A DNA stretch of 64,000 bases from Phycisphaeraceae bacterium. GTDB taxonomy: Bacteria > Planctomycetota > Phycisphaerae > Phycisphaerales > Phycisphaeraceae. Under the pieces are notes generated by a model that was not told where the DNA came from, searched no databases, and saw nothing but the letters and a program-made list of their open reading frames with translations. Below are positions 29,734-49,368 of this stretch, piece after piece; the stretch's first letter is position 1, and every line of letters starts with the position of its first letter. The stretch lies in assembly GCA_963674705.1 (NCBI GenBank), contig OY771506.1:1632001-1696000 (forward strand), in the 5' to 3' direction. The position numbers and the translations under genes are program-made.

Positions 29734-29743
29734 GATTAAACCT

Positions 29744-30958: not shown

Positions 30959-30963
30959 CGTCG

Positions 30964-32685
30964 TCAGCCTTTACCTTTCGTGTCGCCGCCGTAGACATGT
31001 TGCTCATCCTTGGTAACACGCAAGACTTCCTGAACCGTCGTCAGGCCTTCACGCACCAGACGCCAGCCGTCTTCGCGCAGGCTCTGCATCCCTTCGATGG
31101 TCGCCACGCGTCGGACCTCGCGCCCCGAGGCCGTGCCGGTGGCTAGCGCGCGTAATTGTTCGCTCATCGGCATCATCTCGAACACGCCCCGCCGGCCCTG
31201 GTACCCCGTGCCGTTGCACTCCCGGCAACCCGTGCCGACGTACAACTCGCTGGGCAGGTTACCGTTGTACTTCTCGATCAACGCCTGCGCATCACTCTCC
31301 GCCATACGCTGCTTACAACGCGGGCAGATCAACCGCACCAAGCGCTGCGCCACCACCATCTCAAGCGAAGACGCAACCAGGTAAGGCTCGACGCCCATGT
31401 CGATCAATCGCGGGATCGCGCCCGGCGCATCGTTCGTATGCAGCGTGGAGAAAACAAGATGGCCAGTCAACGATGCCTGCACCGCGATCTCCGCCGTCTC
31501 GCGGTCGCGGATTTCACCGATCAAGACAACGTCCGGGTCGTGACGCAAAATCGACCGCAAGCCACGCGCGAACGTCAACCCGGTTTTCGTATCGACCTGG
31601 ATCTGGTTCACGCCGTCCAGGTGATACTCGATCGGGTCTTCGATCGTGACGATCTTGCGGTCGCTGGTATTGATCTGCGAAAGCCCCGCATACAGCGTCG
31701 TCGTTTTACCGCTACCGGTCGGGCCCGTGACTAACACGATGCCGTGCGGAAGCGCGAGGATTTCTTCGAATTTGCCCAGATGCATCTTGGACATGCCAAG
31801 CCCATTGAGCCCGACCAATGAGCCGTGTCGATCGAGGATACGCAGCACGACCGCTTCGCCGTGCAGCATCGGGATGATCGATACACGCACATCGACTTCA
31901 CGTCCTGAGACACGCAGCTTGATGCGCCCGTCCTGCGGCAGGCGCTTCTCTGCGATATCCAAATGGCTTAGGATCTTAAGACGCGAAACGATCGCCGGCT
32001 GGAACCGCGCCACCTCCGGCGGGATCGACGCCTCGACCAGCGTGCCGTCGATGCGGTACCGCACCTTCAGCTTGTGCTCGAACGGCTCGAAGTGTACGTC
32101 CGTCGCACGGCGTTCGATCGCTTCGATCAAAACCTGGTTTACTAACTGGATGATCGACGCGTCCTCGGCAACGTCCGCCAGGTCGATGTCGTCATCATTG
32201 GTGACAAGCTCGATCCCGTCCGCCGCCAGCAGCGACTGCACCGTCGCAGCGCCGACGCCCAGGTGGGTCGCCAGCGCCCGGCGGATGGAATCGCCGGTAG
32301 CGATGACCGGCTCGACGATACACCCTGTTGCCAGCCGCAACTCGTCCAACCCTCGACGGTCGAACACACGACTGGTAGCGATCTTCAGCCGGCCATCGCT
32401 TCGGCTAATCGGTACGAGCTGATACGTTGTCAGCAAACGCGCGGGAAGCTCAGACAGTAACGCCTTGTCCGGCGGGGTCTGCTCCAGGTCAACGAACGGC
32501 AGACCCAGCGTCTGCGCCAACGCCGGCAGCAAACGCTCTTCGGTCAACCCGTCCGCCTGAAGCACCGCCTCTTCAAGAGGTGTGCCCTCTCGCCAGGCCA
32601 AACGCGCGCGTTCCGCGGTCGGCACGTCGATCAGGCCCCCTTCGGTAAGCTGGCTTATTACATCCCGCATGTCACTGACTTTCAA
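30964..32685 (-). CDS. gspE: T2SS ATPase GspE
   Basis: ATDVHFEP, LDIAEKRLPQDGR, GPTGSGKTTTLY, TIEDPIE, LRHDPDVVLIGEIRD, two CxxC motifs. Confidence 0.95.
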   Translation of the reverse strand: MKVSDMRDVISQLTEGGLIDVPTAERARLAWREGTPLEEAVLQADGLTEERLLPALAQTLGLPFVDLEQTPPDKALLSELPARLLTTYQLVPISRSDGRLKIATSRVFDRRGLDELRLATGCIVEPVIATGDSIRRALATHLGVGAATVQSLLAADGIELVTNDDDIDLADVAEDASIIQLVNQVLIEAIERRATDVHFEPFEHKLKVRYRIDGTLVEASIPPEVARFQPAIVSRLKILSHLDIAEKRLPQDGRIKLRVSGREVDVRVSIIPMLHGEAVVLRILDRHGSLVGLNGLGMSKMHLGKFEEILALPHGIVLVTGPTGSGKTTTLYAGLSQINTSDRKIVTIEDPIEYHLDGVNQIQVDTKTGLTFARGLRSILRHDPDVVLIGEIRDRETAEIAVQASLTGHLVFSTLHTNDAPGAIPRLIDMGVEPYLVASSLEMVVAQRLVRLICPRCKQRMAESDAQALIEKYNGNLPSELYVGTGCRECNGTGYQGRRGVFEMMPMSEQLRALATGTASGREVRRVATIEGMQSLREDGWRLVREGLTTVQEVLRVTKDEQHVYGGDTKGKG

Positions 32686-32703
32686 TCAAAAAACATCCAG
32701 CGA

Positions 32704-33363
32704 TCAGTCAAGCAGCCCTTGCAGCACGAGCGTCGCTTCCTGCTTGGGCGTCATGTAGCCACGAAGCTCTTCCCGAGCCTGACGAAGCGCATCCTGCATA
32801 TTGTTACGTGCGCTGCGCAGGGCCGCGAGTTTGCTCTTGACCTCGTCGGCGCTGACATCATCCTTATCAAGTGTTTCACGCAGTGCGGTGGTCGCGTCAC
32901 TGAGCGCTTTGCCTTGCGAACTCATGCTGTCGGTGTCGCCGAACATCCCGAATCCACCCCGGCCTCCGGGTCCACGGTTGCCACGGCCGCTGAACATCGA
33001 CGACATGCCCACCGCCATCTGTTCCTGGGTCAACTGACGCACCTTCTGGATCATGGGTAACAGCGCCTCGAACTCTTCGGCACTCATCTCCAGTTCCTCA
33101 CGCGTCCGGTCGTTCATCTCCTGTTCCATCTGCTTACGGCGTTCCTCGAAACGCTCGCGCATCTGCTCGCGCTGCTCGTCGGTCATGTTTTCCCAGCCGC
33201 CCCGGCCGCCCTGCCCGCGATCTCGCTGACCCGCCTCCCGGCCGCCATCACGCTGACGCGGCCCGTCCGGCGGCGGTCCGTCCTGAGCCAATACCACCGG
33301 GCTTGCCAGCCCAAAGCTCAACATCATGGCCAATGTTACAGCAATAGATTTAAGGTCCTTCAT
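32704..33363 (-). CDS. Exported helical protein (Spy/CpxP-like LTxxQ motifs), first gene of the T2SS operon
   Basis: Signal peptide from ATG 33363; Gly/Arg-rich linkers; MTDEQRE and MTPKQEA motifs. Confidence 0.65.
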   Translation of the reverse strand: MKDLKSIAVTLAMMLSFGLASPVVLAQDGPPPDGPRQRDGGREAGQRDRGQGGRGGWENMTDEQREQMRERFEERRKQMEQEMNDRTREELEMSAEEFEALLPMIQKVRQLTQEQMAVGMSSMFSGRGNRGPGGRGGFGMFGDTDSMSSQGKALSDATTALRETLDKDDVSADEVKSKLAALRSARNNMQDALRQAREELRGYMTPKQEATLVLQGLLD

Positions 33364-33626
33364 AGCAATGGTTTCCATATAAAGTGGTGTAAGGTTGCCT
33401 GTCCCCACGAGCATAACGACCCGATCCGTCGTTTATTGCTACGCCATGTCGTATCCCGGCTATCCAGCCTGACCATTTGCCCCGCAACACGTCACCCGTG
33501 TTTCTCTTGGCACGCAGGTCCATCAACCATGGCCCCATAATGGCAGGCTTCATCCAACTCAAAGGGTTAGCCTGAAATATTTCACGCAAATTTGAGTGCA
33601 ATACAGGGAATTCCCCTGGTCGATCT

Positions 33627-33653
33627 TAAATGGCAAGCCCTCCCGGACGATAT
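33627..33653 (+). promoter_or_regulatory. Putative sigma-28 (FliA) promoter of the MCP gene
   Basis: TAAA-N15-GACGATAT versus consensus TAAA-N15-GCCGATAA. Confidence 0.55.
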
Positions 33654-33835
33654 CACAGCAGCGGGACTAATGCTTTGATGGTTCGGCAGATACATCATGG
33701 GCGGTTCATCCACACAAAAGTCAATGCGCCGATCACGCAGCTATCTGTCTGAAATAACTGAAACCAGGGCTCGAGCGCAATAAACCACAAGCATTTATAT
33801 CCCGATGTTTATTAAGGGCGTTCCAGGAGAATCTC

Positions 33836-35599
33836 ATGCTTAATCGCTTTATGTCATTGGGGTTGGGGTTGCGGATCATCGCGGTGACCTTGGTCATCCT
33901 ATTCACCGTGGTTGTCGTGAATTACACCGTGTTCGTCAGCAAGTACCAAAACTCCGCCGTCGATGCCATGGTCGAAAAGGCCGCCGCCTTCACCGCCGTC
34001 GCGGACGAAGCCAAGAACCACGTGGCCGATCTGAACAACAAACAAACGTTCGCAACCGAGAAGTTGCTCGAAAAGGTCAAGGCCGACCTCGCGGCCGGCA
34101 AGTCCTACACCGAGTCCGACGTCTTCGGGACCATCCCCGTCGTCGCCGGCTGGACCGCCGCACAGGATGCCGCAAGCCGCGAAAACATCGACTTTTACAT
34201 CTCGGCTTATGATGCCCGTAACAAGGAAAACGAACCGGATACCTCATCTTTCGAAGGCATCCTGCTCACCGACCTGAATAACCAGGTCGCCTCCGGCGGC
34301 GCTGAAACCATCCACCGCATCGATGAAGCCACCAACACCCTGCACTACATGCGTGCTATCCGCCTTGAGCAAAGCTGTATGCTCTGCCACGGCGATCCCG
34401 CCACCAGCCCCACAGGGGACGGCAAGGATATCCTCGGCTTCACGATGGAAAACTGGCGGCCCGGCAAGATGCACGGCGCTTACCACGTCGCCCTCCCGCT
34501 GGCACCGATGGATCAGCAAGTCGCTTCCTTCATCACCGGTGGGCTCATGTGGACCGTCCCGCTTGTCGTTGGCGCGATCCTCCTGTTCATCTACCTGCTG
34601 CGCACCTTCTTCAGCAAGCCTATCTCAACACTGATCTCAAGTATCACCGAGATCCAGGATCACAACGACTTGACCCAGCGCGTCGACATCAAGTCCGACG
34701 ACGAGGTCGGCAAGCTCGGTAAATGCTTCAACAGCTTCATCGAAACGCTTCACGGCGTGATCAGAGATGTGGCTACTTCAACAACTGAAGTCGCCGGCGC
34801 AGCCACTGAAATCGCTGCCAGCAGTGAACAGATCGCCAGCGGCATGCGTGAACAAAGCTCGCAGGTCGAGCAGATCAGCTCCGCGGTCGAAGAAATGTCC
34901 GCCAGCGTCGAGGAAGTCGCCCGCAAGAGCGGCATCGCATCCAACGAAGCCAACGAGTCCGGATCCATGGCAGAAGCCGGCGGCCGGACCGTGCGTGACA
35001 CCATCACCGGCATGCAATCCATCGCCGAAGCCGTCAGCGCTGGTGCACTGAGCGTCGCCGAACTTGGCAAACGCGGCGAACAGATCGGGCAGATCATCAG
35101 TGTCATCAACGACATCGCCGACCAGACCAACCTGCTCGCGCTCAACGCCGCCATCGAAGCCGCCCGCGCCGGTGAGCACGGCCGAGGCTTCGCTGTCGTC
35201 GCCGATGAAGTCCGCAAACTCGCCGACCGCACCACCACCGCGACCGAGGAGATCGCCCAGTCGATCCAGGCTATCCAGGTCGAGACAGGTGAAGCCGTCA
35301 CCAAGATGAATGCCGGCACGGAACAGGTGAACGTCGGTGTCGAGAAAGCAACCGAGGCGGGCCACAGCCTTGAACAGATCGTCAACAGCGCTCGAAGTGT
35401 TGCGGGTAACATCCAGTCCATCGCCGCCGCCGCGGAACAGCAATCCGTAGCCGCCGGCGAAGTCAGCCGCAACATCGAATCCATCTCCGCCGTCACCGCC
35501 GAAAGCACCGAAGGCGCTCAACAAGCAGCTCAGGCTGCCACCATGCTTTCACATAAGTGCGAACAACTGCGAAGCATGGTCGCCCGCTTCAAGATCTGA
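33836..35599 (+). CDS. Methyl-accepting chemotaxis protein with periplasmic c-heme (DUF3365-like) sensor
   Basis: Two TMs, CMLCH haem motif, [41 protein letters not shown]. Confidence 0.95.
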
Positions 35600-35625
35600 T
35601 CCAGCTCAAATCTTACACCAACATC

Positions 35626-35662
35626 GACGCCCCGGCTCAACAAATTGGGCCGGGGCGTTTTT
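35626..35662 (+). terminator. Rho-independent terminator after the MCP gene
   Basis: GACGCCCCGGCTCAA-CAAA-TTGGGCCGGGGCGTT followed by TTT. Confidence 0.8.
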
Positions 35663-35686
35663 CTATATCAGTACGTCTTGTGTACG

Positions 35687-35722
35687 CCCCCTTTCCCCCC
35701 GGAGAGGGCCGGGGTGAGGACC
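35687..35722. repeat. Family R REP (solo)
   Basis: CCCCCTTTCCCCCCGGAGAGGGCCGGGGTGAGGACC. Confidence 0.8.
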
Positions 35723-35748
35723 GAAGTCTTTACGTCTTCAATCAATCA

Positions 35749-36750
35749 TCAAGATCCCACATCTATCACTACACGCCCACGCACCTCCCCCTTAAGTATT
35801 TTCTCCGCAAGCTCAATCAACTCCGACATCCGCCTCACCGCCGTCATCGCGTCCAAGTGTCTCGGGTCGAACGACTCGCTCAACGTCTGCCACGCCTTTT
35901 CTCGCTTACTCATCGGCGCCATCACAGAGTCCACGCCGATCAGCGCAATGCTTCGCAAGATGTGTGGCAGCACCGTTCCCGACAGCTCCGCGCCACCGAC
36001 CAATCCGCATGCCGTCACCGCCCCGCCGTACACCGTCTGTGCTAACACGTTTGCCAGCGTCGTCGACCCCACGCAATCCACCGCCCCGCTGTAACGCTCT
36101 TTTTGTAAAGGTCGGCCCGCTTCCGACAACGCCTTCCGATCGATCACCTCACTCGCGCCCAATCCTTTTAGATAGTCGTGCGAATCCGCTTTCCCTGTCG
36201 ATGCGACCACGCGATACCCGCGCGCCGCCAGCAAACTCACCGCCACCGAACCCACTCCGCCTGATGCGCCCGTCACCAGCACCTCCCCCTTGCCCGGCTG
36301 AATCACCCCCCACGCTTCCAGTTCATTCACACACAGCGCCGCCGTATACCCCGCCGTCCCGATCGCCATCGCCTGTTCAAAGCTGAACGCCTCCGGCAAA
36401 CGCATCAACCACTCCGCCCGCAACCGTTGATACCGCGTGTAACCCCCCGACTCCGTCTCCGACAAACCAAACCCGTTGACCACCACCCGGTCCCCCGCCT
36501 TCCAATCAGCCGAATCGGACTCAACCACCGTCCCCGCAAGATCGATCCCCGCTACCAAAGGCAACCGTCGCGCGATTCTTTGTTTCCCCGTAATCGCAAG
36601 TCCGTCCTTGTAATTCAGCGTCGAATACGCTACCTCCACCAGCACGTCATACTCAGGCAAATCATCTACCGTTATCTCACGAAACGCAGGCCGAACCCCA
36701 CCCTCACCTTCTTCAAGTATCAACGCGGTAAACTTTTCATCCTTCATCAA
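35749..36750 (-). CDS. acuI: Acryloyl-CoA reductase AcuI/YhdH-family MDR oxidoreductase
   Basis: YSTLNYKDGLA, GIDLAGTV, AMAIGTAGYTAAL, VTGASGGVGS, PHILRSIALIGVDSV. Confidence 0.85.
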   Translation of the reverse strand: MMKDEKFTALILEEGEGGVRPAFREITVDDLPEYDVLVEVAYSTLNYKDGLAITGKQRIARRLPLVAGIDLAGTVVESDSADWKAGDRVVVNGFGLSETESGGYTRYQRLRAEWLMRLPEAFSFEQAMAIGTAGYTAALCVNELEAWGVIQPGKGEVLVTGASGGVGSVAVSLLAARGYRVVASTGKADSHDYLKGLGASEVIDRKALSEAGRPLQKERYSGAVDCVGSTTLANVLAQTVYGGAVTACGLVGGAELSGTVLPHILRSIALIGVDSVMAPMSKREKAWQTLSESFDPRHLDAMTAVRRMSELIELAEKILKGEVRGRVVIDVGS

Positions 36751-36768
36751 ATTACACCTCTTCTTTTA

Positions 36769-36805
36769 CCCCCTCTCCCCCCGGGAGAGGGTCGGGGTGA
36801 GGGCC
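36769..36805. repeat. Family R REP (solo)
   Basis: CCCCCTCTCCCCCCGGGAGAGGGTCGGGGTGAGGGCC. Confidence 0.85.
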
Positions 36806-36941
36806 GTAGCATATTAAACACACACATCTTCAAACCCGCTCAAGACTCTTTAACTTCCAACAATTCTAATCTTCACTCATCCCCCCGCCACCCTCGCGCA
36901 AAACAGTGACACAACCCACCCACCAACTTATCATGAACCTC

Positions 36942-38333
36942 ATGAAAACACACCGGATACTACCGCTCTGCCTGATCCTCCTAATCACCACCCCGCTTGC
37001 CGCCAAAGACGTCCCGGCGTTTCAAGCCGGCGACCGCGTCGCATTCATCGGCGACTCCATCACGCACGGCGGCAAGTACCACGCCGACATCTACCTCTTC
37101 TACGCTACACGTTTCCCCGATCAACCTTTCAACGTCTACAACTGCGGCGTAGGCAGCGACAACGCGCCCGGGACCTTCAAACGCTTCGAGTCCGACATCG
37201 CAGTCCACCACCCGAACGTCGCCACCATCATGCTCGGCATGAACGATTCATGGTCCTCATGCTTTTCTGAAGGTGAACCCACGCCCGAAATGCTCGAAAC
37301 CCGAAAGCGATGCCACAGCACCTACGAGCAAGGCATGGCAAACCTCGCCGATGCGCTCACCGATGCGGGGTGCCAAATCATCCTCATCAAACCCTCCATC
37401 TATGATCAGACCGCGCAGCTCGAAAGAAAAAACTACCCCGGCAAGAACGACATGATCGTCGAGTTCGGCCAATACCTCGAAACCCTCGCCACCCAACACA
37501 ACGCATCCATCGTCGACTTCACCACCCCCATGCTCGAAGTCAACGCCAAGATGCAGGCCCAGGACCCGACCGCCACCATCGTCGGCGGCGACCGCGTCCA
37601 CCCCGGAACCGCCGGCCACTTCCTCATGGCCTACGCTTTCCTCAAAGCGCAAAACATGCCTGCCATCGTCTCCTCGATCGAACTCGACGCCGCCAATCAA
37701 ACCACAGGCAAACTTGAGAACTGCGCTATTAACGATGATCTAAAATTCTCCGACGACACCATCCAATTCACCTGCACCGAAAACGCGCTGCCTTACCCAC
37801 TCACCGATGCGCAGACCAAAGCCCTGCAATGGGTCCCCTTCCAGACCGAACTCAATCAGCAAATATTCAAAGTTACTTCACTAAAGCCCGGCAAATACCA
37901 ACTCACCATCGACGACACCCCCGTCGGCGTCTACTCCGCCGATGAACTCGCCCAAGGCATCAACCTTTCAGATAACAGCGCCACCCCACAATACAAACAC
38001 GCCCAGCGCGTCGCCGACGCACTCAACGACATGCTCACCGTCACAGGCCAACTCCGCTCCATCGCCTACATGCGCTACATGGTCATTGATAAACAAGACC
38101 CACCCATCCAGGAATCAGACCACGCCGCCGTCAAGCAGGCGCTCGACGCCTACGTCGCCAAAGCCGAAGGCAAACCCTGGTACGACTACTACCAAAGACA
38201 AGCCAATCGCTACCTCGAACTGTCCCCAAAGGAAGATGAACTCAAAACAAACGAACAATCCCTCATGGACCACATCTGGCAAATCAATAAACCAGTATCT
38301 CACCACTGGCAACTCAAACGCGTAAGCAATTGA
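36942..38333 (+). CDS. Secreted SGNH/GDSL hydrolase
   Basis: Signal peptide; FIGDSITH, MLGMND, DRVHP. Confidence 0.88.
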   Translation: MKTHRILPLCLILLITTPLAAKDVPAFQAGDRVAFIGDSITHGGKYHADIYLFYATRFPDQPFNVYNCGVGSDNAPGTFKRFESDIAVHHPNVATIMLGMNDSWSSCFSEGEPTPEMLETRKRCHSTYEQGMANLADALTDAGCQIILIKPSIYDQTAQLERKNYPGKNDMIVEFGQYLETLATQHNASIVDFTTPMLEVNAKMQAQDPTATIVGGDRVHPGTAGHFLMAYAFLKAQNMPAIVSSIELDAANQTTGKLENCAINDDLKFSDDTIQFTCTENALPYPLTDAQTKALQWVPFQTELNQQIFKVTSLKPGKYQLTIDDTPVGVYSADELAQGINLSDNSATPQYKHAQRVADALNDMLTVTGQLRSIAYMRYMVIDKQDPPIQESDHAAVKQALDAYVAKAEGKPWYDYYQRQANRYLELSPKEDELKTNEQSLMDHIWQINKPVSHHWQLKRVSN

Positions 38334-38346
38334 CAGAATTCTTACT

Positions 38347-38508
38347 CCCTCTCCCCTTGGGAGAGGGCCGGGGTGAGGGCCGTTGCGAAATAATCATACG
38401 TTGTTTCAAACACGATCAAGATCTCTTTACGCCATCAGCAATCGAAGTCTTCATGCACAATCAACCCGGCCCTCACCCTAGCCCTCTCCCGCGGGGAGAG
38501 GGGACCGG
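38347..38508. repeat. Inverted pair of family R REPs
   Basis: 38347-38381 and 38466-38508. Confidence 0.88.
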
Positions 38509-38580
38509 GAAAAACAGTTTCTTCTTGTTCAGTTAAGATAAACGTATCGATGTATGAAGATATAGTCATGTTGGTGTACC

Positions 38581-39888
38581 GTGACAGATATTGACTCATT
38601 AACAACACCACGAACCGCCCTCAACTGGCCCGGCAAACAAGCCGCTCGCGAGCTCGTCACTACGCCCGCTGCCGGCGATCTACTCCCCTGCCCCGATCAA
38701 TCCATCAATCCGGATAACACTGACAACCTCTTCATCGAAGGCGATAACCTCGACGCGCTTAAACATCTCGCTAAGACACACGCGCAGCGGATCAAGATGA
38801 TCTACATCGATCCGCCTTACAACACGGGTAAGCGGTTCATCTATCACGACCGCAACCACGCAGCTTCCGGGGGGGAATCCGGGAGCGAGACCGGGGGCGA
38901 AACAAATGGGGATACGCATGCCGGCTGGCTTAACATGATGTATCCGCGTCTGCTGCTGGCTAGGCCGCTGCTCAAAGATGAAGGCGTGATCTTCATTTCG
39001 ATCGATGACAACGAACTGCCACGCCTTCGGCTTCTTTGCGATGAGGTCTTTGGCGAGGACAACTTCGTCGCGGTTTTTACATGGCAGACCAAACGAGCGG
39101 CGCGTGGCGTGCCGCCGACGAATCTGTTGATGGTCAATCATGAATACGTCGTCTGCTACGCGATCGACAAGACCAAGGTTCGCTTCCGCGGGCTGGATCG
39201 TGATGAGAAAGACTTTGCGAACCCGGATAACGATGCGCGCGGGCCCTGGCGGTCCGAAAGTATGAAGGCGACCGGCAAGCAGGACAACACGTTTACGATT
39301 AAAGACCCCGCGACAGGCAACACGTTTACCGCGAACTGGGCGTTTGCGGAGGCGACGCTCAATCAGATGATCGCGGACAACAAGGTGCTCTTCCCTTCAA
39401 CGCCTGCCGGCACGCCTCGGCAGAAGAAGTTCATCAATACGTATCGCAACCCGACCAAGGCGGCGATCACCTCGCTTGGCTGGCATTCAACCGAAAACGC
39501 AACCAAACAACTCATGAACCTCTTCGAAGGCCAAAAGGTCTTCGATTTTCCTAAACCGCAAAGCCTGCTTCGCTTCTTCTGTCAGCAAACGCTAGCCGAG
39601 GACGACATCGCGCTCGACTATTTTGCCGGTTCGGGCAGTCTCGCGCAGGCGGTCATTGAGTTGAACGAAGCCGATCGAGGTGATCGGCGGTTCATCCTCG
39701 TGCAGCGAGCTGAGCCTTGCGATCACAAGTTTTCGACCTCGCAATCGACGATCGAAACCATCGCGGAGGTTTGCAGGCAGCGCATCGCGCGCGTGATCGA
39801 GAAAGTCAAACGCGACCGCGATGATCCGGCGCACGATTCCGTCGCGGACATGCCCGCGCTGGGGTTCAAAGCGATGCGGATCGGATGA
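38581..39888 (+). CDS. Type III Mod-like N6-adenine DNA methyltransferase (no adjacent Res)
   Basis: NLFIEGDNLDAL, IYIDPPYNTG, WLNMMYPRL, IFISIDDNE, FDFPKP, DYFAGSGS. Confidence 0.9.
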   Translation: MTDIDSLTTPRTALNWPGKQAARELVTTPAAGDLLPCPDQSINPDNTDNLFIEGDNLDALKHLAKTHAQRIKMIYIDPPYNTGKRFIYHDRNHAASGGESGSETGGETNGDTHAGWLNMMYPRLLLARPLLKDEGVIFISIDDNELPRLRLLCDEVFGEDNFVAVFTWQTKRAARGVPPTNLLMVNHEYVVCYAIDKTKVRFRGLDRDEKDFANPDNDARGPWRSESMKATGKQDNTFTIKDPATGNTFTANWAFAEATLNQMIADNKVLFPSTPAGTPRQKKFINTYRNPTKAAITSLGWHSTENATKQLMNLFEGQKVFDFPKPQSLLRFFCQQTLAEDDIALDYFAGSGSLAQAVIELNEADRGDRRFILVQRAEPCDHKFSTSQSTIETIAEVCRQRIARVIEKVKRDRDDPAHDSVADMPALGFKAMRIG

Positions 39889-40196
39889 CGGCGTTCGTGC
39901 GCACGGGCCTCAATCACGACAGGACCGTGCGCTCAATCGGTGGTGGATAACGGGTCTGCCACTACCCTCTAATTTGCCTTCACGCACAACTGCGGTTAGC
40001 ACCCACACCTCACCTATCGCACAGCCTCCAACTCCGAGACCCAAAACCCAATTACATTGTCTTGACCCATCACGACACCATCTGAACCGCCACGATCTCA
40101 CAGATCAACGGTCGAATGTGCCACATCCTTCTCGAACCATGCCGATCCTCACCACCACTCGCACCACTCGGCCACCCAACCCTCTCAATAAAGATC

Positions 40197-40213
40197 GTAT
40201 TTAGCCTAAATAC
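40197..40213. other. 17-bp palindrome at the strand-composition switch
   Basis: GTATTTAG-C-CTAAATAC, flanked by inverted CCACCCAAC (40172-40180) and GTTGGGTGG (40251-40259). Confidence 0.6.
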
Positions 40214-40317
40214 TAAGTTCCTGGGTGACACGCAGAAGCGGGTGGATTGTGTTGGGTGGGGTGGGCGGCGGATTCGATGTCTGGTAGATGATGCGTAAAC
40301 GAATGTGTGGCAAATGG

Positions 40318-40833
40318 TTAGCTGCCAAGCACCAGGGACAGGACATGCTGTTTCATGGCAGGCACCTGCTCGGCGACTTCGGCGCTGAGTTGGTCGGCTT
40401 CGTCGAAGCGGTCGGTGCTGATGCTGACGATGTAGGCTTCGGGTGCTCGGCCGAAGAGTTGTTTGGCCATGGCGAGCAGGCGCGGCAGCGTCCAGTGATG
40501 GGTCAGGCCCGTCTCGGTATCGCTGGGCGAGCTGTTGTTATCGTCGTATGCCTCTGGCTGAGCGCGAGTTACGCTGACGATGCCGACCGGTTCGCCGTCG
40601 GGCACACGCGCATCTATTAAAACAGCACGCCTTGCTTGTGAAAGCTCCAAGGCGTGCTCGGGTAATAGCTGATGGGTGATGACGAAACGGTATTGGTTGT
40701 CCGGCAAGGCTTTAGCGTCAAGCTCGGTCTCTGCCTGCTCGGCGACGATCGGTCCAACACCGTCGTCGCCCCGCATCGGGTTGCCACAGGCGATCACCAG
40801 CGTGTCGACCGACACGTCAGGCGTCTCAGCCAC
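40318..40833 (-). CDS. hoxW: Hydrogenase maturation protease
   Basis: [32 protein letters not shown] start overlapping the end of hoxH. Confidence 0.88.
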
Positions 40834-42253
40834 GCGTAACCTCGTCGAGTTTCGCGCCGGACCGATCCACAAGTTCAATGTGCATCGGCATTTGCCCCAC
40901 CGCGTGGGTCGAGCAGCTCAGGCACGGGTCGTAGGTTCGGATGACCGCTTCGACGCGGTTGAGCATGCCTTCGGTCAGGTTCTTGCCGTCCACAAACGCC
41001 TCGGCGACCTGCTTGATGCCGCGGTTCATGGCGATGTTGTTGTGGCCGGTGGCGATGATCAGGTTCGCCCACTTCATCTGGCCGGTGGTCCGATCGATCT
41101 TGTAGTGGTGGATCAGCGTGCCGCGCGGGGCTTCGGAGATGCCGACGCCCTCGGAGCGGTTGGGCCTTGCGTGGGCTCGGACGTGGTCGCTGAGGATGTC
41201 CTTATCCTTGAGGAATCTTTCTATACGTTCAACGCCTGTAAGGATTTCCAGCAATCGTGCCCAGTGGAAGTGGAAGCTGCTCTGGGCGGGATAGCCCGCG
41301 ACCTTGCGGAAGTCTTCCAGTTCCGCATCGGCCTTGGGTGTGCCGAAGCCGGAGCAGATGTTCACACGCGCCAGCGGGCCGACGCGGTAGATGCCCTGCG
41401 GGTAGCCCATCGGCTTGTAGTACGGGAACTTCAAGTAGGTGTAGTCAGCCACGGCTTCACCGATGTACTCGTGATACTCACGGTGCGTGATGCTGTCGTG
41501 CATCACTTTGCCGCGCGAGTCGGTCATGCGTAGCTTGCCGTCGTAGTGTTCCCACTGGCCTTCGGGGGTCACTAAACCCATGAACAGCGTCTCAAAGTTC
41601 GCGAACGCTTCGATTTCCTTTTCAAAATCGCCTAGACAACCCTTGAACCAGTCGAGCGTACGCAGGACGATCTCTTTGGTTTCCGGGATCATGGCAGCGA
41701 TCTTGTCGCGGCGTTCTTCGTTCAGTGGTTCGTTGACGCCGCCGGGCACGGTCCACGCGGGGTGGATGCGTTTCTTGCCGAGGATCTCGATGATCTGTTG
41801 GCCGAACGAACGCAAGCGGATGCCGTCACGCGCACGTTCCGGATGATCCTGGATCAGGCCGAAGACGTTGCGCTTCGCGGGGTCGGAGTCCATACCGAGC
41901 AGGATGTCGGGGCTGGAGAGGTGGAAGAAGCTGAGCGCGTGCGACTGGATGAACTGTGCGAGGTTCATGATGCGTCGCAGCTTCACGCCGACGGGCGGGA
42001 CTTCCACGGCGAGCAGGTCGTCGCATGCTTTGCTGGAAGCCATGAGGTGGCTGACCGGGCAGATACCGCAGATGCGAGCCATGACGGCGGGCATTTCGGT
42101 AAGGGGTCGGCCTTCGATGAACTTCTCGAAGCCGCGGAACTGCGTGACGTGGAACATCGCATCATCGATCCCGCCGTCGTCGTTGAGAACAAGCGTGATC
42201 TTGGCGTGGCCTTCGATACGGGTTACGGGATCGATGGTAATGGTTTTAGGCAT
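40826..42253 (-). CDS. hoxH: Group 3d NiFe hydrogenase large subunit
   Basis: [37 protein letters not shown] plus cleavable tail. Confidence 0.96.
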
Positions 42254-42318
42254 CGTCGTATCTGCCGAATGTAGGGTTCAAAAGTTAGGCGTTTTCGCCT
42301 GTAAATTTCACTAAATAG

Positions 42319-42867
42319 TTAGCGGCCGAATCTTGTCAGCGCGTTGATGTCGGGTTCGCGGCCTTCGAGCAGGTCGACGAGGACCTGGAAGATCGCATCG
42401 GCCGGCGGCGGGCAACCGGGCAGGTAGATGTCGACGTCGATGACCTCGTGGATGGGCTTTGCCTTGGGCAATAGCGGCGGGAGGTAGCTGGCCGGTGGCT
42501 TGCGATCTTTGGGTGTCGAGGCGTTTTCGACGTACGCACGTTCGAGCAGGACGGCCGGCTTGAACGGGTTACGCATCGCCGGGACGTTGCCCGTCACCGC
42601 GCAGTCACCGAGCGAGATCACGAGCTTGCTGCGCTGCCGGATGATCTGTGCTTTGTGCAGGTCTTCTTCGCTGGAGACGGCGCCCTCGACGAGGGTGACA
42701 TCCACATCGTGCGGGAAGTCTTTGGGGTCGACGATAGGCGAGTGGACGATGTCCACGAGTCCGGCGAGGGCGATCAACCGCTCGTCGATATCCAGGAAAG
42801 ACATATGGCAACCCGAGCAGCCATCGAGCCAGACGGTTGCGACTTTGGGTTTGGCTTTGTCAGACAT
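42319..42867 (-). CDS. hoxY: Hydrogenase small subunit
   Basis: WLDGCSGCHMSFLD, GDCAVTGNVP, LPGCPP. Confidence 0.95.
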   Translation of the reverse strand: MSDKAKPKVATVWLDGCSGCHMSFLDIDERLIALAGLVDIVHSPIVDPKDFPHDVDVTLVEGAVSSEEDLHKAQIIRQRSKLVISLGDCAVTGNVPAMRNPFKPAVLLERAYVENASTPKDRKPPASYLPPLLPKAKPIHEVIDVDIYLPGCPPPADAIFQVLVDLLEGREPDINALTRFGR

Positions 42868-43598
42868 TAATCATCCTCCCGCATGAGGGACAGGTAAGGC
42901 AGGAACTTACGGCGTTTGGCCATTTCACCGGCGCTGGTGCCCTTCTCGGTCAGCGCGCCGGTCGGGCAGACGTGCACACACTTGCTGCAACTGGTACAGG
43001 TGTCGCTGTTGCCCCATGGCATGTTCAGATCGTTGACGACCATGCAGTCGATGCCTCGACCCATGATGTCCTTGGTGTGAGCGCCTTCGATTTCGTCGCA
43101 GACCCGCACGCAGCGCGAGCAGAGGATGCAGCGGTTGTGATCGAGGCGGAACTGGCTGTGCGAGCTGTCGACGGTGAGGCTCGGGTAGCGGTACGGCACG
43201 TGGACGTGCGTGACACCGAGCTTGGTCGCCATGGATTGCAGGTCGCAGTTGCCGTTGGAGACGCAGACGCTGCAGACGTGGTTGCGTTCGGCGAACATCA
43301 ACTCAAGGATGGTCTTGCGATACGCTTCCAATCGCGGCGAGTGCGTGAGCACTTCCATCTGCTGGTAGCAGGCGGTGGTGCATGCCGGCATGAGTCTGCC
43401 TTGGGGCAGGACCTCAACGAGGCAGAGGCGGCAGCCGCCCCAGGCGCTGAGGCCTTCCATGTAGCAGAGCGCGGGGATTTCGATGCCGTTTTCCTTCGCG
43501 ACCTGCAACACCGTCTGGTCCGCCTGCGCGGTGACGTCGGTGTCATTGATCTTGATCGTGAAGGTTTCGGGATGGTGGACGACGCTTTTTGGACTCAT
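42867..43598 (-). CDS. hoxU: Diaphorase Fe-S subunit
   Basis: [44 protein letters not shown]. Confidence 0.94.
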
Positions 43599-45247
43599 GA
43601 CTTCACCTCCGCGGCTTTCGTGGCCGCCGCGCCCTTGCCGTTACCCGACGGGGAAACCAGCCGTTCGGTGTATTCGTGTTCGAAGTATCGGAGTGTGCTG
43701 AGCACGGGGTTCGGCGCGGTCTGGCCCAGGCCGCATAGGCTGGTGTGCTTGACCACGTCGCACAGTTCCTTAAGCAGGTCGAGGTCTTTTTGTGTGGCCT
43801 CGCCCTTGTAGATCTTGTCGAGCAGTTCGTACATCTGCCAGGTGCCGACGCGGCAGGGAACGCACTTGCCGCAGGATTCACTCATGCAGAATTCCATGAA
43901 GAACTTGGCGACGTCGACCATGTTGGACGTTTCGTCCATGACGATCATGCCGCCGGAGCCCATGATGGAGCCGACCTCGGCGAGTGATTCGTAGTCGACG
44001 TTCATGTCGAGGAACTGGTCGGGGATGCAGCCGCCGGAGGGTCCGCCGGTCTGTACGGCCTTGAGCTTGCGGCCGTCGGACACGCCGCCACCGATGTCGA
44101 AGATGATGTCGCGTAGTCTCATGCCCATGGGGACTTCGATCAGGCCGGTGTTGTTGATGCTGCCGGCGAGAGCGAAGACCTTGGTGCCCTTGCTCTTTTC
44201 GGTGCCGATGGAGGCGTACCATTCGCCGCCCTCGCGAACGATGGCGGGGATGTTGGAGAGTGTTTCGACGTTGTTGATACAGGTGGGCTTGCCGAACAGG
44301 CCGACGTTCGCCGGGTAAGGCGGACGCGGTCGTGGCTGGCCGCGTTTACCTTCGATCGAAGCGATCAGCGCGGTTTCTTCGCCGCAGACGAAGGCGCCTG
44401 CACCGAGGCGGATTTCGATATCGAAGTTGAACGGTGTGCCGCAGATGCCTCGGCCGAGTACGCCGGCGCGGGCCGCCTGCTTGATCGCGAGCTTCAGGCG
44501 TTTGATGGCGAGCGGGTATTCGGCTCGTACGTAGATGTAGCCCTGGTCTGCGCCGACGGCGTAGGCACAGATGGCCATGCCTTCGAGCAGACGGTGTGGG
44601 TCGCTTTCCAAGACGGCACGGTCCATGAACGCGCCGGGGTCGCCTTCGTCAGCGTTACAGATGACGTACTTCTGCTCGCTGCTGTTCTTGGCGACGTTGG
44701 ACCACTTCAGGCCGGTCGGGTAACCGCCGCCGCCACGGCCACGCAGCCCGCTGGTCTTCACCTCTTCGCGGACGTCGTGAGGCGTCATCTCGGTCAGGGC
44801 ATGTGCCAGGGCGCTGTAGCCGCCGACCGCGATGTAGTCTTCGATGCGTTCCGGGTCGATCCGGCCGGAGTTCTCGAGGACGACGCGTTTCTGCTTGGTG
44901 AAGAACGGGACGTCGGTCGGGCAGACGAGGCGGTCGACGGGCTTGCCGCCGACGCTCTTAGCGATGTCCTTCGCGTCATCGGGTGTGACGTTCTGGTACA
45001 TGGTTTCCTTACCGTCTACATCGACGGAAACAAGCGGGCCGGCGGAGCAGAGGCCCATGCAGCCGACGCACTTGACCTTGCAGTCTTCCTTGCCTTCGGC
45101 CTTGAGGGACTCTTCGAGTTTCTCGACGACCTGGTCGGCCTGCGAGGAGAGGCAGCTTGCTGCCATGCAGACGCGGACGGTCTTCTTGTTTTGTTTCGCG
45201 GCGGCCGCTTCTTTGTCGGCCAAGGCTTTGAGTTCATCAGGAGTCAT
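43595..45247 (-). CDS. hoxF: Diaphorase flavoprotein subunit
   Basis: [51 protein letters not shown]. Confidence 0.94.
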
Positions 45248-45747
45248 TTGGCCACCAACCCTTCGATCTTGCTCATCATGTTTTCAGGTGTCACCTTGCC
45301 GGAGACCTCACCGTCGAAGACGACGGCCGGCGCCAGGCCGCACGCACCGACGCAGCGGGCACACATGAGTGAGACCTCGCCGTCTTCGGTGGTTTCGCCG
45401 GGCTTGATCCCCAACTTCTGTTCCATCGCGTCGATGAGCTTGGGCGCGCCCTTGATGTAGCAGGCGGTTCCCTGGCAGACGACGCAAGTGTGCTTACCCT
45501 TGGGCTTGAGTGTGAAGAAGTGGTAGAAGGTGGCGACGCCGTAGGCTGCACTTAACGGGACGCGTAGGCGTTGGGCGACGAACCGCAGGGCGGTGTCGTC
45601 GATGTAGCCGAAGGCCTCCTGTACGGTGTGCAGTGTTTCGATCAGCGCATGTCGATTGAGCCCGTTGCGGCGTGCGGTGCCGTCAACGATGCGCCAGCGT
45701 TTGTCATCGCTGGGTAGATCGACCTTGGGTTTTGGGATCGCTGCCAT
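45244..45747 (-). CDS. hoxE: Diaphorase [2Fe-2S] subunit
   Basis: [30 protein letters not shown]. Confidence 0.93.
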
Positions 45748-46275
45748 GATCAGCTCTCGTATAAACGGTCATAGACAAAAATCGCCCCCCGATGGGGCAA
45801 CCGCGTCTCGACGTATTGGTATAGGTCGAGTGCGCGGGACAGTTAACGTTATCGGACGGATAAGGTGCGTCGCGAAGCGTCCGCAACGGGCGCGGGTATA
45901 CGGGTGTTGGGATTCGCGAACGGCAGGCATTATCACGGGCCCTTCGACAAACAACTCCAGTGGGTCAAGAATAGAAGATAGCGGGCTCCGAAGAGTTTGT
46001 AAACACGACGTCGGCTGAATGTACGGCGGGTTTTAGGCGGCAGCAAGTATCCACAAATAATGTATTTATGAATTTGAGAATCAGTTGCAAAAACAAGGAT
46101 GAGATTGGCTTTTGATCGTTGTTTTGAAGTGCGTGCGGGGCAGGATTTATATAGATATGGGCGGGAATTTGTGGGCGGGGTGTGGGGATTTGGGGGTTGG
46201 GGTGTCTGATGGGGAAGACTGTGGGTTGATTTATATGTGAACGGGGATAAAGGACCGCAAGTGTGAGTGTATTAC

Positions 46276-46307
46276 ACGACTGCCCGCGTTGCGTTGTGAT
46301 GTGGCTA
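46276..46307. repeat. Degenerate family C hairpin
   Basis: ACGACTGCCCGCGTTGCGTTGTGATGTGGCTA. Confidence 0.6.
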
Positions 46308-46631
46308 TCACGAGAAAGCGATACGGGCGATTAGGAGAAGGACCAGCAAGGTCAGGTATATGGCTGACAAGGTGTTCAGGATCAGCCCCGCGAGGCCATG
46401 TGTGATGTTTCCTTTGCTTGTCAGGCAATGGATGCTCTTTGTGTATCCGAAAACAATAAAGCCCATAAAACCGAGCAACTGGATCAGGTCAAAGATCAGG
46501 AATATGGATCGGGAAGTGTCGGCGCTGGATATCTGGGATGCAAGGGCGCCGAGCAGCAACAGGTACAGGCATCCTGCTAAGGGTGCATGCCAAGCGAGAT
46601 GGGGGCTGTCGATGGAACGTGATGGGTCCAT
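46308..46631 (-). CDS. Hypothetical three-TM membrane protein
   Basis: ATG start, three hydrophobic segments, fills the gap between two repeats. Confidence 0.55.
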   Translation of the reverse strand: MDPSRSIDSPHLAWHAPLAGCLYLLLLGALASQISSADTSRSIFLIFDLIQLLGFMGFIVFGYTKSIHCLTSKGNITHGLAGLILNTLSAIYLTLLVLLLIARIAFS

Positions 46632-46716
46632 TGTGTCATTCTATATGTTACCTAGGCCAAGCACGGCTAAGACTTGTTGATTCTATCAACATCAGAAGTC
46701 TTCAAGCACAAGCCAC

Positions 46717-46817
46717 CCGGCCCTCACCCTAACCCTCTGCCGCCCCCGGAATAGGGAGAGGGGACCGGAAGTGGACGCGTTTGAAACGACTGCCCGCGTT
46801 GCGTCGCAACGCGGCTA
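46717..46817. repeat. Composite family R REP plus family C hairpin
   Basis: CCGGCCCTCACCCTAACCCTC...GGGAGAGGGGACCGG then ACGACTGCCCGCGTTGCGTCGCAACGCGGCTA. Confidence 0.85.
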
Positions 46818-46898
46818 TTAAGGAGTTGGTTACATCCGGTCTTCATAAGCGTATATCGCTATCATGAAGATGGTTGTCGAGTATTTCTGGAGCCGGGT

Positions 46899-47345
46899 AT
46901 GTCATTTAAAACCAAAGTGAAACGGTGTGTCGTCGGCATGGTCGCGGTGATGATGTTGTTGGGTGCGGGGTGTGATGGGCGTTCTGCTTCATCAACCCAA
47001 TCGACTAACACGGCATCGCTCAAGACGAAGCACGTGGTGGACCTGACGCCTGAAGCGGCGCGTGAATTTAAGAAGCAGCTTTCATCGAGCGGCCTGTCGG
47101 AAGGGGCCTATCTGCGCGTTGCGGTCCATAAGTCGGGGGATGATACATGCGCGTTTACCTATGCACTTGATATCACTGAGGACGTTGATCCGGATCATGA
47201 CTGGTACAGCGAATCAGAAGGGGTGCGCATTCTCGTTGATGCTGCCAGCGAGCCTTACCTGAACGGTGCGACGATTGACTATCTTGTGTCGGAAGAGGGG
47301 AAGGGTTTTTCGTTTGATAATCCGAACGCGGAGAAGGCTGAGTAG
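46899..47345 (+). CDS. HesB/IscA-like protein with lipoprotein signal, lacking C-terminal CxC
   Basis: LGAG-C lipobox; VDLTPEAA, YLRVAV, GVRILVD, YLNGATIDY, GFSFDNPNA. Confidence 0.8.
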   Translation: MSFKTKVKRCVVGMVAVMMLLGAGCDGRSASSTQSTNTASLKTKHVVDLTPEAAREFKKQLSSSGLSEGAYLRVAVHKSGDDTCAFTYALDITEDVDPDHDWYSESEGVRILVDAASEPYLNGATIDYLVSEEGKGFSFDNPNAEKAE

Positions 47346-47410
47346 CGGTGGGCGGAGGGGGTAATTGGATTCATTCGGCGTTCATTATCAAGTTCGTGCA
47401 CACAATCCAT

Positions 47411-47501
47411 CCGGCCCTCACCCTAACCCTCTCCCGTGGGGAGAGGGGACCGGAATTGTTCGTATTGTAAACGACTGCCCGCATTGCGTCGCAACGCGGC
47501 T
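47411..47501. repeat. Composite family R REP plus family C hairpin
   Basis: Same composite as 46717-46817. Confidence 0.85.
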
Positions 47502-47583
47502 GGAATCGAAAAAGTTACATCCGGTCTTCATAAGCGCATATCGCTAACATGAAGATGGTTGTTGAGGTTTTCTGGAGCCGGGT

Positions 47584-48030
47584 ATGTCATTTAGTAACAA
47601 GGTAAAACAGTGCGTCGTAGGGATGGTTTCGCGTATGAAGTTGTTGTTTGCGGGGCGGGGTGGGCGTTCTGCTTCATCAAATCAATCGGTTAACTCGGTG
47701 TCGCTTAGGTCGAAGCACATGGTGGATCTGACGCCGAGAGCAGCGTGTGAGTTTAAGAGGCTGATTTCATCGTGTGGCTTGTCGGGAGACATTTATCTGC
47801 GGATTGTGGTCGATAAGACAATGAGTAATACGGGTGAATACTCTTATGCACTTGATATTACCAACTACGTTTATCCGGATAATGACTGGTACTGCGAATC
47901 AGAGGGTGTACGTATCGTGGTCGATTCTGTCAGTGAGTTGCGCCTGAACGGTGCGATGATAGATTATGTGGTCATGGATGGAAGGCCCGGATTCCTGTTT
48001 GATAATCCGAATGCGAAGGCGGTTGAGTAG
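47584..48030 (+). CDS. Tandem paralogue of the HesB/IscA-like protein (lipobox lost)
   Basis: Same length (148 aa), colinear, shared 5' and 3' flanks. Confidence 0.75.
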   Translation: MSFSNKVKQCVVGMVSRMKLLFAGRGGRSASSNQSVNSVSLRSKHMVDLTPRAACEFKRLISSCGLSGDIYLRIVVDKTMSNTGEYSYALDITNYVYPDNDWYCESEGVRIVVDSVSELRLNGAMIDYVVMDGRPGFLFDNPNAKAVE

Positions 48031-48095
48031 CGGTGGGCAGAGGGGGTAGTTGGATTCATTCAGCGTTCATTATCAAGTTCGTACTCACAATCAAT

Positions 48096-48197
48096 CCGGC
48101 CCTCACCCTAACCCTACTCCGGGGGCTCCCGCGGGGAGAGGGGACTGGAGTTGTTCGCGTTTGAAACGACTGCCCGCGTTGCGTCGCAACGCGGCTA
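48096..48197. repeat. Composite family R REP plus family C hairpin
   Basis: Third copy of the composite. Confidence 0.85.
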
Positions 48198-48233
48198 TTA
48201 AAAACCAGTTGTTATTGACACAAAATTTGTTCA

Positions 48234-49124: not shown

Positions 49125-49144
49125 GGGGACTCACTTATTGGGAT

Positions 49145-49368
49145 TAGCCGCGAATGAACGTAGCAGGATTTTTAGCCGCAAATGAACGCTAATGGACGCG
49201 AATGAAGGGGGTGTGGTTGGTGGTTAGTAGTTGGTCATCAAATCATCGAACCTGGTTCCTCAGCTTGAAGTTTTCCAATCCCCAATCCCTAACCCCCAAA
49301 TCTTAATTCGCGTTGATTGGCGTTCATTTGCGGCTAAACATCTTCGCGGCCTTCGCGCCTTCGCGGTT
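49145..49368. mobile_element. Family B element, copy 3 (opposite orientation)
   Basis: Inner arms 49173-49203 and about 49306-49336, heptamer cores reverse-complementary to copies 1-2, outer arm CTTCGCGGCCTTCGCGCCTTCGCGGTT. Confidence 0.75.

What the first reader, a model, noticed from the sequence alone, without database searches (positions are those of the whole stretch)
39889..40317. Sharp C-rich to G-rich strand switch centred on a palindrome in a 430-bp gap between convergent genes: candidate origin or unknown polarity site
Seen: the plus strand is C-rich left of about 40.2 kb and G-rich right of it, whatever the gene orientation. Hand counts: 36421-36480 (minus gene) C25/G10; 37501-37560 (plus gene) C25/G11; 40141-40190 C26/G5; 40221-40270 G27/C7; 48481-48540 (minus gene) G26/C7; 49561-49620 (plus gene) G32/C14. 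The flip falls within about 30 bp, on GTATTTAG-C-CTAAATAC (40197-40213), with inverted CCACCCAAC/GTTGGGTGG around it. By eye the skew is strongest near the site and fades toward 1-7 kb. Established: a C-to-G switch is the polarity of a replication origin, and most genes to the left point away from it. However, there is no dnaA, dnaN or parAB here and only one near-DnaA box in the gap (GGTGGATAA, 39942-39950). Inference: a dnaA-unlinked oriC, or one of several loading sites that impose a local mutational gradient.
Basis: partly seen in the sequence, partly recalled or inferred. Interest (0 to 1): 0.85.

Follow-up and report, generated by a model that had tools for sequence, protein, structure and literature searches.

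The report
Forty-plus origin-like sites in a bacterium
The DNA strand bias flips here, and at about 40 other evenly spaced places on this bacterial chromosome, at copies of one short conserved DNA element, which likely are start points for DNA copying, although bacteria normally use only one.

Summary
The C-to-G switch is real (cumulative minimum at 40,221), but it is not unique and the palindrome does not mark it. The closed 5.54-Mb chromosome has 49 such switches about 113 kb apart. Between switches the skew falls roughly linearly (an N shape). It holds at silent sites of genes on both strands. The marker is a ~105-bp element at 39,897-40,002: two TGCGC boxes 30 bp apart, a DnaA-box-like site and a promoter-like pair. 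36 of 39 copies lie within 4 kb of a switch (about 3 expected by chance), and spacing is far more even than random. A sister genome has 38 copies, and a related element marks weaker switches in a third genome. The palindrome has five copies; only this one sits at a switch. The chromosome still has one parS-to-dif axis of KOPS-like octamers, 120 kb away, which rules out this site as the sole oriC and rules out inversions. Best reading (0.55): dozens of DnaA-assisted replication origins, a eukaryote-like pattern I did not find reported for a bacterium. Against it: no AT-rich unwinding tract, gene orientation follows the single axis, and profile shape cannot exclude a non-replicative process.

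The parts
39897..40002 (+). Whole switch-marking element (~105 bp); one of 39 strong and 4 weak copies in the chromosome
   Evidence: blastn of the gap against the genome; PWM and HMM scans; 36 of 39 copies within 4 kb of a skew minimum, P about 3e-38
39897..39904 (+). Box A, GTGCGCAC (first TGCGC box)
   Evidence: GCGC invariant in 39 of 39 aligned copies
39913..39932 (+). Core ATCACGACAGG-N-GTGCGC (second TGCGC box, 30 bp after the first); the part shared with the longer element of other same-genus genomes
   Evidence: core pattern 15, 15 and 6 hits in G000, G009 and G010 against controls of 1, 0 and 1
39940..39951 (-). DnaA-box-like site (TTATCCACC read on the minus strand); DnaA binding inferred
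   Evidence: 27 of 39 copies TTATCCACC, 6 TTTTCCACC, 1 TTATCCACA, 5 other. The third-position A/T variation matches the W of the recalled DnaA-box consensus TTWTNCACA
39974..40002 (+). Promoter-like pair TTGCCT-17 nt-TAGCAC (function untested; not a sigma-70 consensus match)
   Evidence: TTG-N20-TA spacing in 24 of 39 copies against 0.9% background; sigma-70 scan found 0
40191..40219 (.).
   Evidence: 5 copies in G000 and 5 in G004; only this copy is at a switch; neighbours are unrelated genes
40001..40320 (.). Local C-rich then G-rich tracts that place the raw cumulative minimum at 40,221
   Evidence: 250-bp skew -0.40 then +0.30
4850..39896 (.). Left arm of the skew domain (plus strand C-rich, fading to the switch-back point near 4.85 kb)
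40003..64000 (.). Right arm (plus strand G-rich); continues beyond the window to about genome 1,731.6 kb
38581..39888 (+). Flanking N6/N4 DNA methylase gene with no 4-fold skew (+0.02); not a general feature of the sites
   Evidence: Pfam PF01555; flanks of 29 other copies are functionally unrelated
40318..40833 (-). Flanking hydrogenase maturation protease, last gene of a NiFe-hydrogenase operon
   Evidence: TIGR00072; PF00374 next door

Best explanation
This site is one of about 45 copies of a conserved non-coding element at which strand bias flips from C-rich to G-rich, and these elements likely act as bidirectional replication origins, so the chromosome would be copied from dozens of start points rather than one. 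Shown: the element, its co-location with the switches, even spacing, the N-shaped G+T-rich outward-strand bias at silent and intergenic sites, conservation in a sister genome, and a single separate parS-KOPS-dif axis. Inferred: DnaA1 binds the box. A second protein binds the paired TGCGC boxes; it is unknown, and the divergent DnaA2 is one untested candidate. With no AT-rich tract, opening would come from that complex or from transcription at the promoter-like pair, with actual start points scattered over about 5 kb each side. Forks would run outward and meet the neighbour's forks at variable places, giving the linear decline. Segregation would still use the one parS-to-dif axis.
For: Polarity and spectrum are those of replication starts. 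The outward strand is G- and T-rich: 4-fold GC skew peaks at +0.43 and TA skew at +0.18, 5-7.5 kb out, equally in genes on either strand and also between genes. 43 of 43 elements show an upward jump, mean +0.25, against 0.00 +/- 0.08 at control positions (4 of the 43 are weak copies accepted partly for their position). Both sides are equal whichever way the element points (0.131 vs 0.120). Spacing CV is 0.41 for the 39 strong copies, minimum 63 kb, 0 of 20,000 random sets as even; G004 CV 0.64, P 0.002. A line from one element to the next fits better than a single-exponential additive decay in 32 of 48 gaps, P 0.015. G009 shows plateau-and-switch behaviour across two 205-kb gaps. The whole-chromosome skew term is only 0.02-0.03 against 0.42 for the elements. 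There is no jump at the dnaA1 gap, dnaA2 or parS, and no 500-bp window holds more than 3 DnaA boxes. The box varies where DnaA boxes vary. Silent divergence G000/G004 is not raised near elements (0.11-0.14 within 15 kb, 0.18 at 40-70 kb; 3 elements only), so the process tilts mutation rather than adding it. In G016 the arm right of parB is G-rich (+0.18) with 68% of coding on that strand, so G-rich most likely means leading strand in this family. Human skew N-domains were shown by Okazaki-fragment sequencing to be fork-direction gradients (PMC4729899, passages).
Against: No direct replication data. Gene orientation does not follow the elements: 1,214 operons point outward and 1,233 inward. Where local and global directions conflict, operons over 4 kb follow the parS-dif axis 52 to 29, P 0.014, and the S10-spc ribosomal protein cluster points toward its nearest element. 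No AT-rich tract (median best 60-bp AT 0.62 vs 0.63 in other gaps); trio-like repeats follow the box in only 2 of 39 copies. A free-form additive kernel fits as well as the N shape (cross-validated SS 19,534 vs 19,468, P 0.49), and my simple stochastic-origin simulation fitted worse (20,837) than additive decay (20,070). 8 of 49 switches have no clear element. G009 spacing is not significantly even (P 0.13). The pattern is absent from 400-kb samples of 2 of 5 relatives, G013 and G067, although G013 has two DnaA genes like G000. No dedicated initiator was found.
Confidence: 0.55

Rival explanations
1. The elements are entry sites for a bidirectional process other than chromosome initiation (helicase or translocase loading, repair or recombination synthesis, abortive bubbles, transfer-associated synthesis). 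It exposes the outward strand for up to about 70 kb, on top of ordinary single-origin replication that itself leaves little skew.
For: An additive kernel fits as well as the N shape. The global term shifts both flanks by about +/-0.03, as if added. One parS pole, one dif, 94% polarised GGTGGGGG and axis-following operons all look like a normal two-replichore chromosome. The skew has a short-range bump at 5-7.5 kb. REP-like repeats cluster within 10 kb (13 of 16, 2.8 expected) and 3 of 5 RAYT-like transposase hits lie within 5 kb, suggesting local single-stranded DNA.
Against: I know of no such process that leaves a heritable +/-0.4 silent-site skew over most of a chromosome (own knowledge). 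Silent divergence is not raised near elements. It would need ordinary replication to leave about 20-fold less skew, with no jump at dnaA or parS. The G009 plateaus extend about 120 kb.
Confidence: 0.3
2. The elements are promoters (possibly DnaA-regulated) and the skew is transcription-associated.
For: A TTG-17-TA pair in 24 of 39 copies, downstream of a DnaA-like box.
Against: The promoter-like pair is one-directional but the skew is equal on both sides. It is the same for genes on either strand and reaches 50-70 kb. Flanking genes are unrelated and 13 of 43 copies lie between convergent genes.
Confidence: 0.06
3. Polarity is reversed: the elements are fork barriers and initiation is dispersed between them, with a C-rich leading strand.
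For: Random initiation between fixed barriers also gives an N shape (inference). Genes within 1 kb lean inward (33-43% outward).
Against: The weak global term is G-rich on the parS-to-dif strand (+0.019), G016 is G-rich on its gene-rich arm, and there is no genome-wide inward operon bias.
Confidence: 0.05
4. This site is the single oriC, with the palindrome as its core, or the pattern is due to inversions or misassembly.
For: The site lies 120 kb from the parS pole, and gene-strand bias turns near 1.7 Mb.
Against: 48 other switches of the same kind. 4 of 5 palindromes have no switch. G004 is colinear across 400 kb and nearly identical across the gap. KOPS-like polarity is intact on one axis, which dozens of inversions would scramble. 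Every element jump has the same sign.
Confidence: 0.04

Closest known systems
Mammalian skew N-domains (PMC4729899, passages)
   Same: Upward skew jumps with linear decline between them, read as fixed initiation and variable termination
   Different: Here in a bacterium; domains about 115 kb rather than 0.5-3 Mb; each jump carries a defined ~105-bp sequence element; fork direction not measured
Bacterial oriC and the DnaA basal unwinding system (PMC8287927, passages)
   Same: C-to-G switch polarity; a DnaA-box-like site
   Different: About 45 copies; a single box; no trios or AT-rich tract; not linked to dnaA, dnaN or parAB
Archaeal multi-origin chromosomes, and bacteria proposed from skew alone to have several origins (Wigglesworthia, Wolbachia, Synechocystis, Mycoplasma pulmonis; PMC3269012, passages)
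   Same: Several polarity changes on one prokaryotic chromosome
   Different: An order of magnitude more sites than the two or three described for archaea; regular spacing; a shared cis-element at the switches; no adjacent initiator gene found
Iteron plasmid and chromid origins; R-loop-primed origins such as ColE1 and oriK (recalled)
   Same: One DnaA box beside sites for a second protein; a promoter-like module that could prime
   Different: No iteron array, AT-rich tract or Rep gene found; an RNase H-fold gene is present
parS and dif/KOPS
   Same: Multi-copy or polar chromosome landmarks
   Different: parS-like sites (2, beside parB) and a dif-like site exist elsewhere in this genome and differ from both the element and the palindrome

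Membership tests
Bacterial oriC | C-to-G skew switch | tested here: met
Bacterial oriC | Unique per chromosome | tested here: not met
   49 switches, 39 strong elements
Bacterial oriC | Cluster of DnaA boxes | tested here: not met
   one box per element; at most 3 per 500 bp anywhere
Bacterial oriC | DnaA-trios within 16 bp of a box, or an AT-rich unwinding tract | tested here: not met
   2 of 39; AT content as in other gaps (definition from PMC8287927 passages)
Bacterial oriC | Genes co-oriented away from the site | tested here: not met
   1,214 outward, 1,233 inward operons
Bacterial oriC | DnaA binding, helicase loading, autonomous replication | not testable with these tools
   needs binding assays and a minichromosome
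Replication N-domain borders | Upward jump with linear decline to the next jump, independent of gene strand | tested here: met
Replication N-domain borders | Decline set by the neighbour (competition) rather than by a fixed range | tested here: inconclusive
   beats exponential decay (P 0.015) but not a free additive kernel (P 0.49)
Replication N-domain borders | Measured fork-direction or copy-number peak | not testable with these tools
   only assembled contigs were available
parS | 16-bp parS palindrome near parB | tested here: not met
   parS-like sites at 1,793,864 and 1,794,055 differ from the element; query consensus recalled
dif (for the 29-bp palindrome) | Single 11+6+11 site at the KOPS convergence point | tested here: not met
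   a different, single dif-like site lies at 4,279,315 beside the KOPS-like switch; likeness to dif is recalled
Transcription-factor regulon | Upstream of functionally related genes | tested here: not met
   56 flanking proteins from 29 loci are unrelated
Structured RNA or hairpin element | Covarying stem; Rfam match | tested here: not met
   1 of 19 stem positions above shuffles (P 0.011, uncorrected), the invariant boxes uninformative; 0 Rfam hits in 12 loci

The most novel reading that the evidence does not exclude
A free-living bacterium has moved from one oriC to about 45 evenly spaced, sequence-defined, DnaA-box-containing origins that fire stochastically, as in eukaryotes, while keeping one parS-KOPS-dif segregation axis. 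Same-genus relatives show an intermediate state in which a related element, attached to a multicopy structured RNA-like tail, acts alongside the main origin, so the origins may have been spread by a mobile element.
Probability: 0.5. Interest if true: 0.97.

Novelty: categorically new. Interest (0 to 1): 0.88.

Why it matters
Single-origin chromosomes are described as the norm in bacteria (PMC6116050, passages). Proposals of multi-origin bacteria have rested on irregular skew plots whose author called them unresolved (PMC3269012, passages). Here the switches are regular, strong at neutral sites and tied to a defined cis-element with 43 mapped positions. That makes the question directly testable by read depth, Okazaki sequencing or binding assays. 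If true, it is a natural model for how many origins arise and coexist with FtsK/Xer segregation, and it would mislead skew-based assembly checks and peak-to-trough growth estimates for this lineage. If the sites are not origins, an undescribed chromosome-wide strand-asymmetric process exists.

Tried and rejected
Palindrome as marker: rejected. Gene-orientation or codon artefact: rejected. Assembly join: G004 has the same gap. In 3 of 4 laid runs contigs end at 40,217 and restart at 40,191, so none bridges the palindrome; this fits a repeated word shared with the copy at 4,013 kb. Contig depth in those runs peaked on the element-bearing contig in 2 of 3 well-covered runs and 5 kb to the right in the third. 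Depth per contig is no copy number, so I give it no weight. No RNA holder listed. Offset of the switch versus local transcription (rho -0.23, P 0.14) or element orientation (P 0.42): nothing. A 230-370-bp repeat at two G016 jumps proved to be a local family confined to 1.15-1.25 Mb, not a genome-wide marker; no G016 marker was found. Loss of RNase HI as cause: not supported; 8 of 10 other same-genus genomes have a weak-scoring RNase H hit and G013 has none yet lacks the pattern. No extra DnaB, and nothing I recognised by eye as an initiator among 260 Walker-A matches; Rep-type proteins were not searched. tRNA inward bias (57 of 78) vanished when arrays were merged (28 of 48). Octamers polarised around elements beyond base skew were dominated by palindromic repeats. 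Two further families' genomes (G035, G095) were not examined, so the range outside this family is open. Literature searches with no matching report (listings only); subscription journals are largely not covered. Scan notes: nothing for this genome or sequence.

Full report
Observation. The window is positions 1,632,001-1,696,000 of a single 5,539,117-bp contig. The switch holds at 4-fold-degenerate sites in genes on both strands. It is not sharp at neutral sites: the methylase gene ending at 39,888 has skew +0.02, and the 30-bp flip comes from local tracts in the gap.

The switch is one of many. After subtracting the codon-position effect (own gene caller, 4,204 genes), the chromosome has 49 skew minima with mean spacing 113 kb, and spectral power peaks at periods of 90-170 kb. 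Averaged around minima, 4-fold skew is about -0.37 at 5-10 kb left and +0.36 to +0.41 right, for plus- and minus-strand genes alike, with about half of coding on each strand. All abrupt changes are upward; the return is gradual.

The palindrome is not the marker. It has 5 copies inside a 29-bp quasi-palindrome, with 5 in sister genome G004. The other four copies lie 10-36 kb from an element and show no jump. Their neighbours are unrelated genes. It is not the chromosomal dif, because a different dif-like site sits at 4,279,315. What binds it is unknown.

The marker is an element at 39,897-40,002. Searching the gap against the genome, without using skew, returned dozens of copies of its first 60 bases. 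A PWM gives 39 copies and no other positive score (the copies trained the matrix). 36 of 39 lie within 4 kb of a minimum, where about 3 are expected (P 3e-38). An HMM adds 4 weak copies at four more minima. All 43 show an upward jump, mean +0.25, against 0.00 +/- 0.08 for controls. Of the 49 minima, 40 have an element within 5 kb, one at 8 kb, and 8 none that is clear. Spacing is far more even than random (CV 0.41, minimum 63 kb, 0 of 20,000). Orientation is mixed and does not affect the skew. The anatomy is GTGCGCA, then ATCACGACAGG and a second GTGCGC 30 bp after the first, then GTGGTGGATAAC, then ATTTGC and a TAG-containing block 17 nt further. Read on the other strand the third module is TTATCCACC in 27 and TTTTCCACC in 6 of 39 copies, varying at the position that is W in the DnaA-box consensus (recalled). 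Fixed spacers with free sequence and no stem covariation point to protein-binding DNA, although this copy can fold as a hairpin (z -2.35). There is no AT-rich tract and no trio array. Flanking genes are unrelated.

Profile. Outward-strand 4-fold GC skew is 0.08 within 0.5 kb, 0.43 at 5-7.5 kb, 0.21 at 20-30 kb and 0.00 at 60-80 kb; TA skew and intergenic skew follow it. For model fits I used 48 sites: the 43, three weak partial matches, and two placed by skew alone. I left out 367 of 2,769 bins with low GC or few sites. A straight line between neighbours fitted best among simple models (SS 19,446; additive exponential 20,070; stochastic-origin simulation 20,837) and beat the exponential in 32 of 48 gaps. 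It did not beat a free additive kernel (P 0.49). Shape alone therefore does not prove competition between neighbours.

One segregation axis remains. parB with two parS-like sites lies at 1.793-1.794 Mb. GGTGGGGG is polarised in 245 of 260 copies, and it and related octamers switch near 1.79-1.85 Mb and at 4.278 Mb, beside the dif-like site. dnaA1 is at 1.10 Mb, dnaA2 at 1.41 Mb and dnaN at 0.40 Mb. None of dnaA1, dnaA2 or parS shows a skew jump. The skew term on this axis is 0.019 against 0.42 for the elements. This excludes inversions as the cause and excludes the window's site as the single oriC. It is also the strongest caution: 55.7% of coding follows the axis, long operons follow it over the elements 52 to 29, and there is no outward gene bias.

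Relatives. The exact pattern was found in 2 of 41 genomes: G000 (34 hits) and G004 (38 hits, control 0). In 400 kb of G004, 3 of 3 elements sit at minima and a fourth, weak minimum has none. The region is colinear at 93% identity and silent divergence is not raised near elements. Other same-genus genomes carry a related element: two GCGCAC boxes 113 bp apart sharing the core, followed by a ~300-nt multicopy tail. In G009, 15 of 17 copies not used for discovery show an upward jump, mean +0.08 against 0.00 +/- 0.05 (P 0.002). Its 4-fold skew runs as plateaus of about +0.1 and -0.35 that switch about 125 kb into two 205-kb gaps. The core is clearly above control only in this genus among 81 genomes. 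G016, another genus, shows upward jumps on a positive baseline with no marker found. G013 and G067 show no such pattern in 400 kb.

Mechanism. Bidirectional, symmetric, G+T-rich outward bias at neutral sites, covering nearly the whole chromosome with almost nothing left for a single origin, is most simply the trace of replication forks leaving each element (inference; 0.55). DnaA1 keeps the usual recognition helix (RDHTTVMH), while DnaA2 has PNHSTIIT and could read a different site; this is untested, and 33 of 41 genomes searched have two or more DnaA C-terminal matches. REP-like repeats and RAYT-like genes cluster within 10 kb of the elements, which fits single-stranded DNA there but does not separate origins from other entry sites (0.30).

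Comparison. The pattern works like human skew N-domains, which Okazaki sequencing confirmed as fork-direction gradients (PMC4729899, passages). It fails membership in canonical oriC on uniqueness, box clusters and trios (PMC8287927, passages). Multi-origin bacteria have been proposed from skew plots with explicit caveats (PMC3269012, passages), and single origins are called the norm (PMC6116050, passages). dif prediction failed for the one planctomycete tested in PMC3025954 (passages). Passages of 10.1101/808410 mention multiple origins only for archaea. Eight searches (listings only) showed no report of this pattern; no supplements were read.

Verdict. The feature is real and much larger than flagged, and its marker is 300 bp left of the palindrome. 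Interest 0.88.

Noticed in passing
G009 loci L169-L185; G003 L118, L133, L142; G008 L119; G010 L125: A ~300-nt multicopy tail after the GCGCAC core with compensatory changes (21 of 66 predicted pairs) and a further long-range GGACCGGG/CCCGGTCC complement that covaries in 4 of 15 rows. No Rfam hit; absent from G000. Candidate new structured RNA or non-autonomous mobile element.
   Followed up: partly
window 40191-40219; G000 1,392,014, 1,444,651, 2,498,925, 4,013,002: 29-bp 11+7+11 quasi-palindrome, 5 copies conserved in G004; G009 has 8 copies of a related 17-mer at 3 mismatches. Binding protein unknown.
   Followed up: partly
G000 4,279,315-4,279,341: Single dif-like site at the KOPS-like convergence point; GGTGGGGG looks like the lineage's KOPS.
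   Followed up: partly
G000 0.40, 1.10, 1.41 and 1.79 Mb: dnaN, dnaA1, dnaA2 and parB/parS are scattered over 1.4 Mb instead of forming an origin cluster; a 1.3-kb gap with an AT-rich stretch follows dnaA1 without a skew jump.
   Followed up: partly
G000 2,284,689-2,286,503: DnaB is split by a long in-frame insertion (840-aa frame, against 507 in G004), likely an intein.
   Followed up: no
G000 4,145,279-4,145,653: The genus has only a weak-scoring RNase H-fold gene (E about 1e-9), whereas other families of the order have canonical RNase HI.
   Followed up: no
G000 622-628 kb: Two tRNA arrays of 10 and 20 genes.
   Followed up: no
G016 1,153-1,255 kb (L148-L162): A 230-370-bp intergenic repeat with inverted ends, about ten copies confined to 100 kb.
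   Followed up: partly
window 49511-52249: FtsK gene with long acidic tracts 10 kb from the element; no link shown.
   Followed up: no
window 46899-48030: Two tandem similar 148-aa ORFs; the first is an Fe-S biosynthesis (PF01521) protein.
   Followed up: no
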